From IMG/VR virus record IMGVR_UViG_3300014846_000039: a stretch of DNA of 7,722 nt. One strand, 5' to 3'. The translations under genes and the position numbers were made by a program. The notes beneath the pieces were generated by a model. The model was not told the origin of the DNA. It worked only from the letters and a program-made list of their open reading frames with translations, and did not search any database. The first letter of the stretch is position 1, and every line of letters starts with the position of its first letter. Shown here one piece after another: positions 1,021 to 6,873 of the stretch. The stretch comes from a virus. Taxonomy: Duplodnaviria > Heunggongvirae > Uroviricota > Caudoviricetes.

Positions 1021-1707
1021 ATGACCCCAATAAAAATATTTATGACTATTGCTGATTTCAAACGGCCTAAATTGGAGCTCCCAAACGGGGCAAACAAACT
1101 ACTACTGCACTCTTGCTGTGCTCCATGTTCCGGTGAAGTGATGGAGGCGCTTCAGGCCTCGGGAATCGACTACACCATCTTTTTCTACAACCCGAACATT
1201 CATCCTCAGAAAGAGTATTTAATTCGTAAGGATGAAAATATTCGCTTTGCTGAACAACACGGCGTGCCGTTTATCGATGCTGATTACGACACCGACAACT
1301 GGTTTGAACGTGCCAAAGGAATGGAATGGGAGCCTGAGAGGGGGATCCGTTGTACCATGTGTTTTGACATGCGTTTTGAGCGGACAGCGTTGTACGCTGC
1401 TGAAAATGGTTTCAGTGTGATCAGCAGTTCACTGGGCATTTCACGCTGGAAAAATATGCAGCAGGTTAACGAGTGTGGGCGGCGAGCTGTTGCGCATTAT
1501 CCGGGTATGGTGTACTGGGATTATAACTGGCGCAAGCAGGGCGGCTCGTCCCGTATGATTGAAATCAGCAAGCGCGAAAAATTCTATCAGCAGGAATATT
1601 GTGGCTGTGTGTATTCTCTGCGCGATACCAATCTACACCGCAAATCTCAGGGACGCCCTCTTATCAAAATTGGCCAACTCCACTACGGAAAAGAAGAGAA
1701 GGAGTGA
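1021..1707 (+). CDS. queH: Epoxyqueuosine reductase QueH-like protein (DUF208 family)
   Basis: 228-aa ORF with the N-terminal [11 protein letters not shown] cysteine motif and further conserved Cys (CTMCFD, CGC) that I associate with DUF208/QueH. No obvious Shine-Dalgarno before 1021; in-frame alternative start ATG at 1042. Assignment by motif memory only. Confidence 0.6.
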
Positions 1708-1945
1708 TTTTATGGATCACCTTTCTGATTGATTTCATATTGGCGAGGTGACGTGAGTTAAGTAGAATGGCTGCGGGGGGCTTGAGGCTATCTGTCTCAG
1801 GCATGAACACTGAAAGGCAGATAGAGAAAAGCCCCAGTTAACATTTCGCGTCCTGCAAGACGCTTAACATTAATCTGAGGCCCAATCTATGTCTCACAAA
1901 TGTAGGTTAGCCTCTTACGTGCCGAAAGGCAAGGGGAAGCAGGCT

Positions 1946-2209
1946 ATGAAGCAGCAAAAGGCGATGTTAATCGCCCTGATCGTCATCTGTTTAACCGTCA
2001 TTGTGACGGCACTGGTAACGAGGAAAGACCTCTGCGAGGTACGAATCCGAACCGGCCAGACGGAGGTCGCTGTCTTCACAGCTTTGCCAGGCATCCTCAA
2101 CGCACCCGCACTTAACCCGCTTCGGCGGGTTTTTGCATTAGTCTGGTTGACAAAAATAGAAAAATGCGAAAATATGTGGTTTACGAATTCTAAAAAAAGC
2201 GAAACTTGA
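1946..2209 (+). CDS. hokD: Hok/Gef-family membrane toxin, HokD(RelF)-like for the first 46 codons, with replaced and extended 3' end (possible pseudogene or variant)
   Basis: ATG 1946 with SD AAGGGGA at 1931-1937. Residues 1-46 (MKQQKAMLIALIVICLTVIVTALVTRKDLCEVRIRTGQTEVAVFTA) match HokD/RelF as I remember it; canonical Hok proteins are about 50 aa, but here the frame runs on to TGA 2207-2209 (87 aa) through a terminator hairpin and a promoter-like sequence. The ORF-track start at 1889 is in frame but upstream of the SD-supported ATG. Confidence 0.65.
   Translation: MKQQKAMLIALIVICLTVIVTALVTRKDLCEVRIRTGQTEVAVFTALPGILNAPALNPLRRVFALVWLTKIEKCENMWFTNSKKSET
2115..2134 (+). repeat. Direct repeat copy 1 (acccgcttcggcgggttttt), identical to 3950-3969
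   Basis: Exact 20-nt identity read directly from the sequence. Confidence 0.85.
2116..2134 (+). terminator. Rho-independent terminator-like hairpin (5-bp GC stem cccgc/gcggg, TTCG tetraloop, T5 run)
   Basis: Stem 2116-2120 pairs with 2125-2129, loop ttcg 2121-2124, T-run 2130-2134; lies inside the extended hok frame and just upstream of the cassette promoter-like element. Confidence 0.55.
2147..2176 (+). promoter_or_regulatory. Putative sigma70 promoter for the cassette (perfect -35 TTGACA, weak AT-rich -10)
   Basis: TTGACA at 2147-2152; about 17 nt downstream an AT-rich -10 candidate (aaatat 2170-2175); 35 nt before ATG 2211. The -10 is poor, so low confidence. Confidence 0.3.
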
Positions 2210-2210
2210 A

Positions 2211-2861
2211 ATGAATGAAAATCAGTTAGCTCCTTGTTGGGAATTTCAACCTTATCTTGCTGAAAACTATGTTCGCCACTTGTTGGCGGAGATCGCTAAC
2301 GTACTTGAGCAGCTGTACTATCATAAGCACGCATTAGACAGCAACTGGTCTGAAGGTGTAAGGGCTTATGATTGGGTCAGAAATCATCTTATTCAAAATG
2401 AAGATGCAATTCCTGGCCTTGAGATGATTTCCAAGGGGTTGGACTATGTAGTTGCTTTAAATAAAGTTCCGCTACAATTTACCAAAGATTGCATTAATAA
2501 CCCCAAAAAGAAACATCGTCTGCGTCGAAATAAAGTAGAGTATGAGCAGCTCTCATTGTTTGGTGATGTTGAGGCTGAGCAAGATATTACATGGCGAGTC
2601 ATAGCTGAGCCTTTTTTATCCGAAGAGGGCGATGGTGAATTAGAGTCCACACTGCCTCGTTGGGAGGTAGCTCTTGTTGGATTTAATACTTATGGTGCTC
2701 AGATTAGTATAGTTTCTCATCAATCTACAGCATCGATGCCGCTTATGCCTCTTGATTATAACACACTCCCTGACGAAGCGGAGATTAATAAGGTGCCTCT
2801 TCGTCGGCGTACGAAGGATAAAGATTTGGATGTGAGCAGTGATGGAACATCAGGTGAATAA
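2211..2861 (+). CDS. Hypothetical protein, 216 aa, no recognisable family; first gene of the inserted cassette
   Basis: ATG 2211, TAA 2859-2861; overlaps the downstream gene by 20 nt (operon-like). AT-rich codon usage (hand-counted samples about 33-38% G+C versus about 50% in flanking genes). No clear SD. Acidic protein with two basic patches (NPKKKHRLRRNK, VPLRRRTKDKD); no TM segment or catalytic motif recognised. Confidence 0.6.
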   Translation: MNENQLAPCWEFQPYLAENYVRHLLAEIANVLEQLYYHKHALDSNWSEGVRAYDWVRNHLIQNEDAIPGLEMISKGLDYVVALNKVPLQFTKDCINNPKKKHRLRRNKVEYEQLSLFGDVEAEQDITWRVIAEPFLSEEGDGELESTLPRWEVALVGFNTYGAQISIVSHQSTASMPLMPLDYNTLPDEAEINKVPLRRRTKDKDLDVSSDGTSGE

Positions 2862-3945
2862 CTTCACTGAGTATCGGGGTGATAAGCTCAAACTAGCGAG
2901 AATGGCTGTTGGGCTTTCTTGTGAAGAGTTAGCCGAAAAAATTGGCAAGACAAAGCAATTCGTTAGCAAACTGGAGAAGGGGTGCAGGCCATCGGAGCAA
3001 TGTCTTGAGTTAATATCTTCAGCGCTTATGATTAAGTCCAGTTTTCTTTTTACTGAACGAAAATACGCTCTGGAAAGTGATGTCTGCCATTTTCGGAGTA
3101 AGAAGTCCAGGACTCAAACGCTGACTAATAGTGTATTGGCCAGGGCTGAGATTCTTAATATTATAATTTCTGCTGTTGAAGGTGAAATCGAATTTCCTGA
3201 CGTTAACATACCGGAGCACCCAGGGGCTGAATTACTTACTCCGAATGATATTGAGCGAGTGGCAGAAGATTGTCGCCGTGCCTGGAATTTAGGTCTTGGC
3301 CCTATATCATCAATGGTTAAATTGGCGGAGAGTTTAGGGGTAATCGTTGCGCATGTTACGGGAGTCGATGATCGTGTTGATGCTTTTACTGTTCACAATA
3401 ACAGGCCTGTTATCATCAGGAACAATGTTAAAAAAAGCATATGTAGATTTCGCTCTGATTTAGGTCATGAATTAGGGCATTTAGTAATGCATGAGGGCAT
3501 AACGACAGGTGATAAACTTACGGAATCACAAGCCGATCACTTTTCGAGCGCCTTATTAGTTCCCAGGTTATCTTTCATTAAAGAATTTCCACGAATACGA
3601 GGTAAGCAATTCGACTGGAATGCTCTGGTTGAATTTAAACTTAGATGGAAAATCAGCCTTAAAATGTGTATTTATCGAGCCAGCGCATTAGGCTTATTGA
3701 CCCAGGAACAGGCAAGAACTGGCTATATGCATCTTAATTCCAGAGGGTATACGAGAGTTGAACCTGGTGATGAACTTTTGCGCCCTGAAGAACCCGGCAT
3801 GCTGGCCGAGGCGATTGAAATGCTGGATGATGCAACCTGGCTAAGAATTCTTATGAAAACTGGCTTGAGCCAAGATTTAATTCGTGAGTTGTTCTCCATC
3901 AACAGACCTATTACAAATCCAAGAAATATTTTCCAGATTGTTTGA
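2842..3945 (+). CDS. HTH_XRE DNA-binding domain fused to ImmA/IrrE-family (COG2856, M78-like) zinc metallopeptidase, with a C-terminal extension of about 110 aa
   Basis: N-terminal XRE-type HTH (LKLARMAVGLSCEELAEKIGKTKQFVSKLEKG); HEXXH zinc motif HELGH encoded at 3466-3480; downstream third-ligand motif typical of ImmA/IrrE (ESQADHFSSALLVP). ORF track starts at GTG 2839; the adjacent ATG at 2842 is preferred. Stop TGA 3943-3945, followed immediately by a terminator. Confidence 0.8.
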   Translation: MEHQVNNFTEYRGDKLKLARMAVGLSCEELAEKIGKTKQFVSKLEKGCRPSEQCLELISSALMIKSSFLFTERKYALESDVCHFRSKKSRTQTLTNSVLARAEILNIIISAVEGEIEFPDVNIPEHPGAELLTPNDIERVAEDCRRAWNLGLGPISSMVKLAESLGVIVAHVTGVDDRVDAFTVHNNRPVIIRNNVKKSICRFRSDLGHELGHLVMHEGITTGDKLTESQADHFSSALLVPRLSFIKEFPRIRGKQFDWNALVEFKLRWKISLKMCIYRASALGLLTQEQARTGYMHLNSRGYTRVEPGDELLRPEEPGMLAEAIEMLDDATWLRILMKTGLSQDLIRELFSINRPITNPRNIFQIV

Positions 3946-3949
3946 GTAT

Positions 3950-3969
3950 ACCCGCTTCGGCGGGTTTTT
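3950..3969 (+). repeat. Direct repeat copy 2 (acccgcttcggcgggttttt), identical to 2115-2134
   Basis: Exact 20-nt identity read directly from the sequence. Confidence 0.85.
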
Positions 3970-3970
3970 T
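3951..3970 (+). terminator. Rho-independent terminator (cccgc / TTCG loop / gcggg, T6 run) ending the cassette
   Basis: Stem 3951-3955 / 3960-3964, loop 3956-3959, T-run 3965-3970; 5 nt after the stop codon of the peptidase gene. Confidence 0.6.
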
Positions 3971-3989: not shown

Positions 3990-4019
3990 TTGAAGTTTTG
4001 GACGGTGCCAGAATAGAAT
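3990..4019 (+). promoter_or_regulatory. Putative promoter (TTGAAG, 18-nt spacer, TAGAAT) upstream of the small ORFs
   Basis: -35-like TTGAAG 3990-3995 and -10-like TAGAAT 4014-4019; sequence-only guess. Confidence 0.25.
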
Positions 4020-4054: not shown

Positions 4055-4276
4055 ATGGACCCCGAACAGGGGGAGTGCTATTTATCTGGAAGGATTCTGT
4101 TGATGAAAATCGAAGAATTACGTGAAATTTTTAGTGAAGATGGCCTCTATGCTGTGCGCGTTGAGAATGGGGGTATTACCTACACAGCGTTAATTCCTGA
4201 TGATCATGTAGTGTTATCTGTTGAGGCATTCATTGAATACTTGGAAAGACTCGGTTTCAAGGTAGTTCGGGAATAA
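4055..4276 (+). CDS. Hypothetical small phage protein (73 aa; 57 aa if started at ATG 4103)
   Basis: ATG 4055 preceded by purine-rich GGGAGAAGAGGG (4043-4054); alternative ATG 4103 preceded by GGAAGGA (4088-4094). Stop TAA 4274-4276. No family recognised. Confidence 0.5.
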   Translation: MDPEQGECYLSGRILLMKIEELREIFSEDGLYAVRVENGGITYTALIPDDHVVLSVEAFIEYLERLGFKVVRE

Positions 4277-4335: not shown

Positions 4336-4608
4336 ATGGCGCACAATACCAAACACCACAATTCTGATGCCGACCCTGCCAGCAGACACGGACGGCGCTC
4401 TCACGCATTCAAATATGACTGGTACCAGCATGACCAATGCACTGAAGAACAGGCCGAGTGGCTGATTCAGAATTACCGCAGACGTGGATACCAGTTTCAG
4501 AAAGGCCTCAGTCCTGACTTCCGACACTGGATAATTTCCGTCAGGCTCCCTTATTCCGAACGCCCGCCGCGTCCGTCCCGCACATATCAGCAACGCATCT
4601 GGAGGTAA
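4336..4608 (+). CDS. Hypothetical small basic protein (90 aa)
   Basis: ORF from the track; no clear SD; its stop TAA 4606-4608 is embedded in the RBS/start of the next gene, suggesting coupling. Positionally analogous to the small gene (rem) that I recall between hokD and ydfU in the K-12 Qin prophage, but the sequence was not recognised. Confidence 0.4.
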   Translation: MAHNTKHHNSDADPASRHGRRSHAFKYDWYQHDQCTEEQAEWLIQNYRRRGYQFQKGLSPDFRHWIISVRLPYSERPPRPSRTYQQRIWR

Positions 4609-5668: not shown

Positions 5669-6049
5669 ATGACCGAACGCATAGAATTTGTTTTGCCTTA
5701 CCCGCCGACGGTGAACACTTACTGGCGACGCCGTGGCAGCACATATTTTGTATCAAAAGCCGGGGAGCGTTATCGCCGGGCAGTGGCGCTTATTGTTCGC
5801 CAGCAGCGGCTGAAATTAAGCCTGTCCGGAAGGTTGGCAATAAAAATTATTGCAGAACCACCGGATAAGCGCCGCCGTGACCCGGACAATATTCTGAAAG
5901 CGCCGCTGGATGCGCTGACGCATGCGGGGTTGCTAATGGACGATGAGCAGTTTGATGAAATCAATATCGTTCGTGCTCAGCCAGTATCTGGTGGACGTCT
6001 GGGGGTGAAGATTTACCCCATAATGCTTGAAGGGCAGGTCAAAAAATGA
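5669..6049 (+). CDS. rusA: Holliday-junction resolvase RusA family
   Basis: 126-aa ORF with RusA-like blocks (LPYPPTVNTYWRR; DKRRRDPDNILKAPLDALTHAGLLMDDEQ; GGRLGV) comparable to E. coli RusA. Stop overlaps the next start (ATGA at 6046-6049). Confidence 0.85.
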   Translation: MTERIEFVLPYPPTVNTYWRRRGSTYFVSKAGERYRRAVALIVRQQRLKLSLSGRLAIKIIAEPPDKRRRDPDNILKAPLDALTHAGLLMDDEQFDEINIVRAQPVSGGRLGVKIYPIMLEGQVKK

Positions 6050-6702
6050 AACTGGAAGATTTACCGAAATACTACTCCCCAAAATCCCCCGGCCTGACTG
6101 ATGCATCGGCCTCAACGTCGAAAGATGCGCTGAGTATCACTGATGTGATGGCCGCGCAGGGCATGACACAGAATCGGGCTGAGATGGGGTTTTCTGCGTT
6201 CCTTGGGAAAATGGGCATTAGTATGAATGACAGAGAGCGGGCAACAGAATTGCTGACAGAATATGCACTCAGTCGGTGTGATCGCGTGGCGGCGTTAAGA
6301 AAACTCCCGGCAGAAATAAAACCGGTAGTGATGCGCATTATGGCTTCGTACGCTTTTGAGGATTATGCCCGCAGCGCAGCGAGTAAAAAGCAGTGCCCTT
6401 GTTGCTATGGGGAAAAATTTATTGAAAGCGTAGTTTTTACAAACAAGGTCCAGTATCCGGATGGTAAGCCGCCGGTATGGGCAAAGTGTACGAAAGGTGT
6501 GTATCCGTCTTACTGGGAAGAATGGAAAAAAAATCGGGAGGTGGTAAAAGTTGCCTGTCCGGAGTGTGGCGGAAAGGGTGAGGTTTCCACCGCCTGTAAG
6601 GATTGCCGTGGGCGTGGTGTCGCCATTCATCGTGAAGAGTCGGTAAAACGTGGTATGCCTGTTATCAGAGACTGCCAGCGTTGTGGTTGGTCGTGGCTGT
6701 GA
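6046..6702 (+). CDS. Late-gene antitermination protein Q family
   Basis: 218-aa ORF immediately after rusA (typical lambdoid order), with Cys-rich zinc-finger-like segments (CPCCYGEKF, CPECGGKGEVSTACKDCRGRG, CQRCGW) and followed by a promoter plus intrinsic terminator, as expected for Q / pR' / tR'. Confidence 0.75.
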   Translation: MKLEDLPKYYSPKSPGLTDASASTSKDALSITDVMAAQGMTQNRAEMGFSAFLGKMGISMNDRERATELLTEYALSRCDRVAALRKLPAEIKPVVMRIMASYAFEDYARSAASKKQCPCCYGEKFIESVVFTNKVQYPDGKPPVWAKCTKGVYPSYWEEWKKNREVVKVACPECGGKGEVSTACKDCRGRGVAIHREESVKRGMPVIRDCQRCGWSWL

Positions 6703-6873
6703 AAGGCTGCCATCAACGGAGGCATTTAATGCCATATGCAAAGTGACGAGTGCTATCACGCTTGATACGTGGAAAAAATCAGTGAAACGCTTTTACGATA
6801 CGTTGGTGGTTCGGTTTGACATTGAAGAGGCATGGGCGGAGCGGCAGTTAAAGAGGGTAACGCGATAGTGTTG

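What the first reader, a model, noticed from the sequence alone, without database searches (positions are those of the whole stretch)
2842..3945. HTH_XRE-ImmA/IrrE metallopeptidase fusion with an extra C-terminal domain of about 110 aa
HTH, HELGH (3466-3480) and the E-x-x-A-x-x-F-x-x-x-L-L-x-P third-ligand motif are all present, so the peptidase looks catalytically competent. The roughly 110 residues after the peptidase core (from about WNALVEFKLRW to the end) are not part of the minimal ImmA fold as I know it and could be a sensor domain, by analogy with the sensor-like C-terminal domain of IrrE/PprI. A single polypeptide combining DNA binding and protease could be an autoregulated switch that fires on a phage- or stress-derived signal.
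Basis: partly seen in the sequence, partly recalled or inferred. Interest (0 to 1): 0.6.

Follow-up and report, generated by a model that had tools for sequence, protein, structure and literature searches.

The report
RosmerTA antitoxin RmrA in a prophage
The gene is real and intact, but it is the already-described antitoxin (RmrA) of a RosmerTA toxin-antitoxin anti-phage cassette carried by an E. coli prophage, and its "extra" C-terminal stretch is the normal, conserved end of that protein family rather than an IrrE-like sensor domain.

Summary
The ORF runs 2842-3945 (367 aa). It has an XRE HTH (aa 13-72), HELGH at 3466-3480, the third-ligand motif at aa 228-241, and 109 residues from W259 to the end.

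The protein is not a new architecture. It matches PADLOC RmrA profiles over its full length (E 6e-105). The overlapping upstream 216-aa gene matches RmrT (E 4.6e-25). This is a RosmerTA toxin-antitoxin defence module. The same gene sizes and order were validated as Vmi480/Vmi470 in 2015.

The cassette (about 2136-3949) is a self-contained insert between hokD and rem of a lambdoid E. coli prophage. It is 100% identical in listed genomes, and 237 of 5,426 complete genomes carry at least 80% of it. It is bounded by duplicated terminator hairpins. Its promoter region holds two conserved GGTTKAC-N14-GCGAAA repeats.

Of the "extra 110 aa", residues 259-281 lie within Pfam's M78 model. Residues 284-367 are an all-helical extension. 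All but four of the 81 relatives compared, which span many phyla, carry a comparable extension. It is found only behind this peptidase, folds confidently only in the full-length model, and matches no known fold. It is not GAF-like.

A sensor role is untested. Interest is low. One lead is worth testing: an invariant (C)HFR(S/K) motif in the flexible HTH-peptidase linker could be a self-cleavage site.

The parts
2114..2135 (+). hokD terminator hairpin (AACCCGCTTCGGCGGGTTTTTG); left boundary of the inserted cassette
   Evidence: Terminator scan. Comparison with the empty site in phage PhiR42_1.
2136..2210 (+). Cassette promoter/operator region with TTGACA at 2147-2152
   Evidence: The sequence is conserved upstream of rmrT in homologous cassettes L083, L086 and L084, which sit in different prophage contexts. 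The promoter function is inferred; the simple sigma-70 scan did not flag it.
2145..2171 (+). Operator-like repeat 1: GGTTGAC-N14-GCGAAA (overlaps the -35 hexamer)
   Evidence: Direct repeat. The pattern occurs twice in the window against 0.03 expected. Conserved in relatives.
2178..2204 (+). Operator-like repeat 2: GGTTTAC-N14-GCGAAA, 33 nt after repeat 1
2211..2861 (+). rmrT, 216-aa putative toxin of unknown biochemical function
   Evidence: PADLOC RmrT PDLC03929, E 4.6e-25, covering 5-195 of 198 profile positions. phrog_5786, E 8e-85. Homologous upstream gene in 63 of 80 related loci. No Pfam or PDB hit.
2842..3945 (+). rmrA, 367-aa HTH-M78 antitoxin/repressor (the finding)
   Evidence: PADLOC RmrA PDLC03943, E 6e-105, aa 11-350 against profile 2-342/370. 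phrog_2439 matches full length. AF2 model pLDDT 89.3, pTM 0.87.
2878..3057 (+). XRE-type HTH DNA-binding domain (aa 13-72)
3085..3099 (+). Invariant linker motif CHFRS (aa 82-86) in the lowest-confidence internal stretch
   Evidence: H83, F84 and R85 are invariant in alignment A1. F84 is kept in 72 of 81 and R85 in 77 of 81 relatives across phyla. The pLDDT block for aa 81-90 is 62.
3115..3690 (+). M78 (ImmA/IrrE) metallopeptidase module (aa 92-283), including the HTH-like end (aa 242-283)
3466..3480 (+). HELGH zinc-binding/catalytic motif
3523..3564 (+). Third zinc-ligand helix ESQADHFSSALLVP (E228)
3691..3942 (+). Family-specific C-terminal extension (aa 284-367). It consists of helix 288-300, a conserved acidic loop (E307, D310, E316, P318), three short helices (320-351) and a variable tail ending in hydrophobic residues.
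3950..3970 (+). Second copy of the terminator hairpin (ACCCGCTTCGGCGGGTTTTTTG); right boundary of the cassette

Best explanation
The ORF encodes RmrA, the antitoxin and probable autorepressor of a two-gene RosmerTA (Vmi480/Vmi470-type) toxin-antitoxin anti-phage module. The module sits as a self-contained, terminator-bounded cassette between hokD and rem in the early-right region of a lambdoid E. coli prophage.

Proposed working, with the status of each step marked:
(1) rmrT and rmrA are co-transcribed from the cassette's own promoter and translationally coupled through a 20-nt overlap. The anatomy is shown; the coupling is inferred.
(2) The N-terminal XRE HTH binds the two GGTTKAC-N14-GCGAAA repeats that overlap the promoter, and so autoregulates the operon. 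The repeats and their conservation are shown; binding is inferred.
(3) The rest of the protein keeps RmrT harmless. This part is the M78 peptidase body together with the C-terminal helical extension, which appears to pack onto it. Neutralisation is shown for homologues in the literature; how it happens is unknown.
(4) The near-invariant active site implies that proteolysis matters. Infection-triggered cleavage or loss of RmrA would then free RmrT and stop the infected cell. This step is inferred.

The C-terminal 84 aa are an integral, family-specific part of RmrA. They are not a separable IrrE-like sensor domain.
For: Identity and family:
- Full-length matches to 14 PADLOC RmrA profiles, best E 6e-105. 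The upstream gene matches RmrT at E 4.6e-25.
- Full-length match to phrog_2439.
- Literature. RosmerTA is a Zn-peptidase antitoxin with a toxin of unknown function; it defends against phage and a delta-rmrA mutant could not be obtained. The ImmA-domain antitoxin is a hub that often carries an N-terminal HTH. Vmi480 (198 aa, first gene) and Vmi470 (362 aa, HTH plus Zn-peptidase) were validated as toxin and antidote. A related E. coli prophage pair makes clpP essential.

Gene pairing:
- 80 related loci from many phyla nearly all have a same-strand ORF abutting or overlapping the rmrA start, most of about 200-320 aa. 63 of the 80 belong to one RmrT family.

Cassette:
- 100% identical in listed genomes; 237 of 5,426 complete E. 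coli genomes carry at least 80% of it.
- The empty site is seen in phages PhiR42_1 and PPompW.
- Duplicated terminator hairpins flank it.
- GC content is 0.41-0.45 against about 0.5 in the flanks.
- Relatives also sit in prophage regions with nin, Q-antiterminator, methyltransferase or lysis genes.
- The operator-like repeats occur twice against 0.03 expected and are conserved in relatives.

C-terminus:
- All but four of the 81 relatives compared have 72-121 aa after the M78 module. E307, E316 and P318 are kept in 71-76 of 81.
- pLDDT is 90-95 in the full-length model, but 51-69 for aa 284-319 when folded alone.
- The C-terminal profile finds only this family.
Against: Nothing here tests toxicity, neutralisation, DNA binding, proteolysis or phage defence for this allele. 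RmrT has no invariant residues and no recognisable fold or enzyme motif, so calling it a toxin rests on homology to PADLOC and literature families. The simple sigma-70 scan did not call the proposed promoter. The model coordinates and PAE were not available, so packing of the C-terminus on the peptidase is inferred only from pLDDT and pTM. The NCBIfam spr1629 antitoxin equivalog scores below its cut-off (155.9 against 335).
Confidence: 0.82

Rival explanations
1. [quoted passage not shown] That domain would activate the protease to cut the HTH or the upstream protein.
For: The peptidase module is structurally closest to CapP and IrrE/PprI. In those proteins a C-terminal domain does bind ssDNA and stimulates cleavage. 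The RmrA C-terminal region is conserved and contains invariant acidic residues.
Confidence: 0.07
2. RmrA is a prophage life-cycle regulator of the ImmR/ImmA kind: a repressor plus anti-repressor protease in one chain. It would control induction or late gene expression of the prophage, not a toxin.
For: HTH+M78 pairs control ICEBs1 and some phages. The gene lies in the regulatory early-right region, upstream of the Q antiterminator.
Against: Closely related phages lack the cassette altogether and keep hok and rem adjacent. It is insulated by terminators. It always travels with the upstream RmrT-family gene, including in non-phage contexts across phyla. The homologous Vmi470 sits on a genomic island and behaves as an antidote.
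Confidence: 0.03
3. This is a variant within the TA model. The peptidase fold is only a scaffold that binds and masks RmrT, a pseudo-protease in the manner of Rir, which shows no detectable cleavage. The HExxH motif would be retained for zinc-dependent folding rather than catalysis.
For: Rir inhibits its repressor without detectable cleavage despite an active-site motif. The overlap of the two genes suggests stoichiometric co-production, typical of complex-forming type II TA pairs.
Against: The catalytic Glu (E210), not only the metal ligands, is kept in 79 of 81 relatives down to about 30% identity. That pattern is more easily explained by selection on catalysis.
Confidence: 0.08

Closest known systems
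Vmi480/Vmi470 toxin-antitoxin pair of Vibrio mimicus MGIVmi1 (Luo et al. 2015, PMC4671572)
   Same: Same gene order (toxin first) and comparable sizes: 198 and 362 aa against 216 and 367 aa here. The antitoxin has an N-terminal HTH followed by a Zn-peptidase. The genes are tightly linked with their own promoter. The toxin has no known domain. A GTDB locus with exactly those sizes and a 5-nt gap (L003) is 47% identical to RmrA, and its upstream gene matches RmrT at E 6e-16.
   Different: That pair is on a genomic island with a 5-bp spacer. This one is in a prophage with a 20-nt overlap.
RosmerTA (RmrT/RmrA) anti-phage systems (Millman et al. 2022; PADLOC/DefenseFinder models)
   Same: Both proteins match the RmrA and RmrT profile families over their full length. 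The antitoxin is a Zn-peptidase and the toxin is of unknown function.
   Different: Whether this allele is the one tested experimentally is unknown. The Kita-phage RmrT is a membrane-depolarising protein with predicted transmembrane regions. Nothing in the RmrT sequence here suggested a membrane segment, but this was not formally tested.
CapH/CapP and DdrO/IrrE(PprI) repressor-protease pairs
   Same: These have the same two functional modules: an XRE HTH repressor and an M78 peptidase with an HTH-like linker subdomain. CapP and PprI are the best structural matches for the peptidase.
   Different: There the two modules are usually separate proteins, and the peptidase carries a C-terminal GAF-like ssDNA-binding domain. 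RmrA is a fusion, has a short helical extension in place of GAF, and is paired with a toxin rather than regulating a divergent operon.
ImmR/ImmA of ICEBs1
   Same: M78 peptidase acting on an XRE repressor; a minimal peptidase without GAF.
   Different: ImmA is 169 aa and a separate protein. There is no toxin partner and no C-terminal extension.
PD-lambda-2 (Vassallo et al. 2022)
   Same: An Xre-peptidase fusion encoded after a toxin-like gene in an E. coli defence system.
   Different: PD-lambda-2 has a HigB-like first gene and a required third gene, and its Xre-peptidase component is itself toxic. Here the first gene has no HigB/RelE signature and no third gene lies inside the terminator-bounded cassette.
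LexA (functional analogy proposed by Makarova et al. 2009)
   Same: One chain combines a DNA-binding domain, a flexible linker and a protease domain.
   Different: LexA is a serine-lysine autoprotease. Self-cleavage of RmrA has not been shown.

Membership tests
RosmerTA (RmrT/RmrA) | Antitoxin matching RmrA profiles (Zn-peptidase, usually with an N-terminal HTH) | tested here: met
   PDLC03943, E 6e-105, aa 11-350 against profile 2-342/370. Thirteen further RmrA profiles score E 3e-70 to 6e-30.
RosmerTA (RmrT/RmrA) | Adjacent gene matching an RmrT profile | tested here: met
   PDLC03929, E 4.6e-25, aa 7-209 against profile 5-195/198.
RosmerTA (RmrT/RmrA) | Two-gene operon on one strand | tested here: met
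   rmrT 2211-2861 and rmrA 2842-3945 are on the same strand with a 20-nt overlap, between two terminator hairpins.
RosmerTA (RmrT/RmrA) | RmrT is toxic and RmrA neutralises it | not testable with these tools
   Shown only for homologues in the literature.
RosmerTA (RmrT/RmrA) | Protection against phage infection | not testable with these tools
   Literature only.
ImmA/IrrE metallopeptidases (M78, PF06114, COG2856) | HExxH plus a downstream Glu as third zinc ligand | tested here: met
   H209, E210, H213 and E228 are invariant in A1 and kept in 78-79 of 81 relatives.
ImmA/IrrE metallopeptidases (M78, PF06114, COG2856) | Pfam PF06114 above the gathering score | tested here: met
   42.6 bits against a cut-off of 22; aa 176-281, profile positions 15-123 of 123.
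ImmA/IrrE metallopeptidases (M78, PF06114, COG2856) | Fold of the peptidase module | tested here: met
ImmA/IrrE metallopeptidases (M78, PF06114, COG2856) | Site-specific cleavage of an XRE-type repressor | not testable with these tools
IrrE/PprI-CapP subgroup | C-terminal GAF-like domain (ssDNA sensor) | tested here: not met
ScfR/PrpR-type regulators (HTH + M78-like + C-terminal DUF2083; definition recalled from memory) | DUF2083 C-terminal domain | tested here: not met
NCBIfam NF052239 spr1629 family repressor/antitoxin (equivalog) | Score at or above the curated cut-off (335 bits) | tested here: not met
   155.9 bits, E 1.5e-45, aligned over the full length. It is related but outside the equivalog.
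PD-lambda-2 | HigB-like first gene and a third P4-antitoxin-like gene | tested here: not met
   The upstream protein has no Pfam hit. A terminator follows directly after rmrA.

The most novel reading that the evidence does not exclude
The invariant (C)HFR(S/K) motif (aa 82-86) lies in the only low-confidence internal stretch, exactly between the HTH and the peptidase. It could be the M78 self-cleavage site, F84|R85. That pairing has a hydrophobic P1 as in ImmR F95|M96 and an Arg P1' as in DdrO L106|R107. The conserved acidic loop of the C-terminal extension (E307, D310, E316, P318) would complete or gate the substrate cleft. RmrA would then be a LexA-like single-chain switch. A phage cue would trigger cleavage in cis or trans, detaching the DNA-binding domain. 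That would derepress the operon and release RmrT at the same time.
Probability: 0.15. Interest if true: 0.55.

Novelty: already known. Interest (0 to 1): 0.2.

Why it matters
The finding adds little as it stands. The gene would be labelled RosmerTA RmrA by current defence-system annotators, and the fusion architecture has been discussed since 2009. RefSeq names it only "helix-turn-helix domain-containing protein" and its partner "hypothetical protein".

What remains open is how RosmerTA works: what RmrT does, what the peptidase cuts, and what phage cue it senses. This analysis gives concrete handles for that question in a very common E. coli allele:
- a conserved two-repeat operator candidate;
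- an invariant linker motif that resembles known M78 cleavage sites;
- a mapped C-terminal extension with a conserved acidic loop and a variable three-helix end.

Tried and rejected
- Mobile or shuffled C-terminal domain. Rejected: a profile search of 1.84 billion representatives found it only behind this peptidase. The short hits checked were N-truncated fragments, apart from one chimera.
- Function of RmrT. Pfam on 33 members and a PDB profile search gave nothing above noise, and no invariant residues were found.
- Co-variation of the C-terminus with toxin type. Uninformative: nearly all partners are one family or look-alike families, so clade and partner are confounded.
- Identity with the E. 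coli E101 TA pair of Rousset et al. This could not be checked, because proteins cannot be fetched by accession. The cluster look-up did not list those accessions.
- Sigma-70 scan. It did not call the cassette promoter, and the hits inside the genes are at chance level.
- Lau et al. 2022 in PMC. Not held; the bioRxiv version was used instead.
- Contact prediction by co-evolution. Not attempted, because there are too few sequences. Model coordinates and PAE are not exposed by the tools.

Full report
**Observation.** The window carries an intact ORF from ATG 2842 to TGA 3945, encoding 367 aa. RefSeq annotates the same coordinates in near-identical E. coli prophages as WP_000401168.1, "helix-turn-helix domain-containing protein". 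HELGH is at nt 3466-3480 (aa 209-213). The motif ESQADHFSSALLVP is at aa 228-241. WNALVEFKLRW begins at aa 259, 109 residues from the end. Pfam finds HTH_3 (aa 16-62) and Peptidase_M78 (aa 176-281, 42.6 bits against a cut-off of 22). The description is therefore accurate. The one correction is that Pfam's M78 model already extends to residue 281.

**What it is.** Against PADLOC the protein matches 14 RmrA profiles over essentially its whole length. The best is PDLC03943 at E 6e-105, aa 11-350 against profile 2-342/370. The 216-aa upstream ORF (2211-2861, overlapping rmrA by 20 nt) matches RmrT at E 4.6e-25, covering 5-195 of 198 profile positions. PHROGs holds full-length families for both proteins. 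NCBIfam's spr1629 repressor/antitoxin model aligns end to end but scores below its equivalog cut-off.

[quoted passage not shown] The ImmA-domain antitoxin is a hub in the TA network and often carries an N-terminal HTH. The same gene order and sizes were validated genetically in 2015: a 198-aa toxin first, then a 362-aa HTH plus Zn-peptidase antidote, named Vmi480/Vmi470. Makarova et al. had already noted in 2009 that more than half of COG2856 peptidases are fused to Xre domains and sit next to toxins. They also drew the LexA analogy. A related E. coli prophage pair makes clpP essential.

**Genomic setting.** The whole window is 99.4% identical to E. coli prophage DNA. The 2.2-kb stretch around the cassette is 100% identical in the listed genomes. 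237 of 5,426 complete E. coli genomes carry at least 80% of it. Phages such as PhiR42_1 and the PPompW group have only the two flanks, adjacent to each other.

Alignment shows that the cassette (about 2136-3949) lies directly after the hokD terminator hairpin ACCCGCTTCGGCGGGTTTTT. That hairpin is present again right after the rmrA stop codon, at 2114-2135 and 3950-3970. GC content falls to 0.41-0.45 across the cassette, against about 0.5 on either side. Homologous cassettes with 60-76% protein identity sit in other prophages, next to nin, Q-antiterminator, methyltransferase or lysis genes. This is a typical terminator-insulated prophage "moron".

**Regulatory region.** Between the left hairpin and the rmrT start lie two direct repeats, GGTTGAC-N14-GCGAAA (2145-2171) and GGTTTAC-N14-GCGAAA (2178-2204), spaced 33 nt apart. 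The pattern occurs twice in the window against 0.03 expected. The repeats, and a TTGACA inside the first one, are conserved upstream of rmrT in three divergent cassettes whose outer flanks are unrelated. I infer that this is the promoter/operator bound by the RmrA HTH. Binding itself is untested, and the simple sigma-70 scan did not call the site.

**The protein.** A 51-sequence alignment (37-84% identity) has several invariant positions: H209, E210, H213, E228, a block R202/R204/D206, W259, E307, D310, E316, and a linker motif H83-F84-R85. AlphaFold2 with this alignment gives a confident, compact model (pLDDT 89.3, pTM 0.87). Its elements are:
- five HTH helices (aa 13-70);
- a lower-confidence linker (pLDDT 62 for aa 81-90);
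- a peptidase module with a three-stranded sheet (168-194), the HExxH helix (200-216) and the third-ligand helix (225-239);
- then only helices: 242-248, 259-269, 273-282, 288-300, a loop, and 320-327, 330-340, 344-351.

**The C-terminal extension.**
- It is not GAF-like, because it has no beta-sheet.
- Folded alone it drops to pLDDT 72 and pTM 0.45. Residues 284-319 fall to 51-69, whereas the three short helices stay at 76-88. In the full-length model the same residues score 90-95.
- In 80 loci from GTDB species representatives (Proteobacteria, Actinomycetota, Acidobacteriota, Chloroflexota, Cyanobacteria), all but four relatives have 72-121 residues after the M78 module. The four exceptions have 28-42 residues; the clearest of them (L039, L059) have tails that look frameshifted. 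E307 is kept in 76, E316 in 71 and P318 in 75 of 81 sequences. Conservation then falls from 0.58 (aa 284-319) to 0.40 (aa 320-352) and 0.30 (tail).
- A profile of the extension searched against 1.84 billion cluster representatives found 235 proteins. In full-length proteins the match always lies at about residues 275-370 of a 360-420-aa protein. The short hits examined are mostly N-truncated fragments that still carry the upstream peptidase motifs.

The extension is thus a normal, integral feature of this family, not a domain recruited from elsewhere. Its role may be part of the substrate cleft, a toxin-contact surface, or a dimer interface. That remains open.

**The partner.** Nearly every related locus has a same-strand ORF ending at or overlapping the rmrA start, most of them about 200-320 aa. 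Iterative HMM searches unite 63 of the 80 with the window's RmrT. Many of the rest are similar in size and in their acidic tails. The family has no invariant residue and no Pfam or PDB relative. I cannot say what RmrT does.

**How it most likely works.**
- Shown: a conserved, insulated two-gene cassette; an intact and strongly conserved metalloprotease site; an XRE HTH; and conserved operator-like repeats.
- From the literature on homologues: the first gene is toxic, the second is its antidote, and such systems defend against phage.
- Inferred: RmrA represses its own operon through the repeats and keeps RmrT inactive. Conservation of the catalytic Glu argues that proteolysis is part of the mechanism. 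Infection would inactivate or consume RmrA, releasing RmrT.

One specific lead stands out. The invariant F84-R85 sits in the flexible linker between the HTH and the peptidase. It resembles the known M78 cleavage sites ImmR F95|M96 and DdrO L106|R107. Self-cleavage there would give the LexA-like switch that Makarova et al. proposed. I give that about 15%.

**Rivals.**
- An IrrE/CapP-type sensor switch fails on the structure of the C-terminus.
- An ImmR/ImmA-type prophage regulator fails because related phages lack the cassette and because the gene always travels with the RmrT-family gene.
- A non-catalytic scaffold is possible, but it is disfavoured by conservation of the catalytic Glu.

**Verdict.** The object is an already known kind of system (RosmerTA, Vmi480/470 type). 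Interest is low at 0.2. The residual value lies in concrete, testable handles on the unknown RosmerTA mechanism.

Noticed in passing
window 2084/2085 (hok ORF 1889-2209): Compared with E. coli 042, DETEC-S792 and phage PhiR42_1, the window lacks 56 bp. The missing stretch removes the last six codons and stop of hokD plus a GC-rich hairpin. The hok reading frame therefore runs on to TGA 2207-2209, 1 nt before the rmrT ATG. A 40-mer across the junction has no match in 5,426 complete E. coli genomes. This is either a rare allele or an assembly artefact.
   Followed up: partly
window 6687 (ORFs 6046-6702 and 6650-6868): A 1-nt insertion relative to a 99.4%-identical prophage splits the Q antitermination gene (273 aa in the relative) into two ORFs. 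Together with the hok deletion, this suggests a decaying prophage or a sequence of lower quality.
   Followed up: partly
window 6326-6603: 36 of the 48 differences (substitutions and single-base indels) from the closest E. coli prophage cluster in about 280 bp inside the Q gene. This looks like a mosaic recombination patch.
   Followed up: no
window 1776-1951: Rfam sok (RF01794) match at 116 bits on the + strand, upstream of and overlapping the hok start. The window has a 1-nt insertion at 1779 relative to the closest prophage.
   Followed up: no
window 1021-1707: An epoxyqueuosine reductase QueH gene (Pfam E 1e-65) sits in the prophage early-right region, about where phage PhiR42_1 carries relBE upstream of hok.
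   Followed up: no
window 3085-3099 (RmrA aa 82-86): The motif (C)HFR(S/K) is invariant or nearly so across phyla, yet it lies in the least confident internal stretch of the model, between the HTH and the peptidase. F-R resembles the known M78 cleavage sites.
   Followed up: partly
window 3898-3942 (RmrA aa 353-367) and relatives: Despite a variable tail, many family members end in a short hydrophobic motif (for example IFQIV, LRLV, LTLV, VVSL), sometimes followed by a few more residues. It could be a degron or a docking strand.
   Followed up: no
PDB 9vzy_A (not in the window): A solved 393-aa "HTH cro/C1-type domain-containing protein" aligns to the RmrA profile over positions 158-292 (E 1.3e-8). 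It has about 78 further residues, so a structure of a related HTH-M78 fusion exists. No paper about it was found in the library.
   Followed up: partly
window 4055-4276 and 4336-4608: The downstream 73-aa ORF is a rem-like protein (phrog_340). RefSeq annotates only a 75-nt partial pseudogene at that position in related genomes. The next 90-aa ORF matches phrog_1212. A promoter-like site lies at 3990-4019, just after the cassette terminator.
   Followed up: no
loci L041, L062, L069, L071, L075, L076, L080-L082: The upstream partners of some distant RmrA relatives fall outside the RmrT HMM family. They share its size (217-300 aa), an acidic C-terminal tail and a basic P-x-K/R...R segment, so they are probably remote homologues. 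A Streptomyces/actinomycete clade (L050, L052, L058, L066, L070) has no convincing upstream partner.
   Followed up: partly
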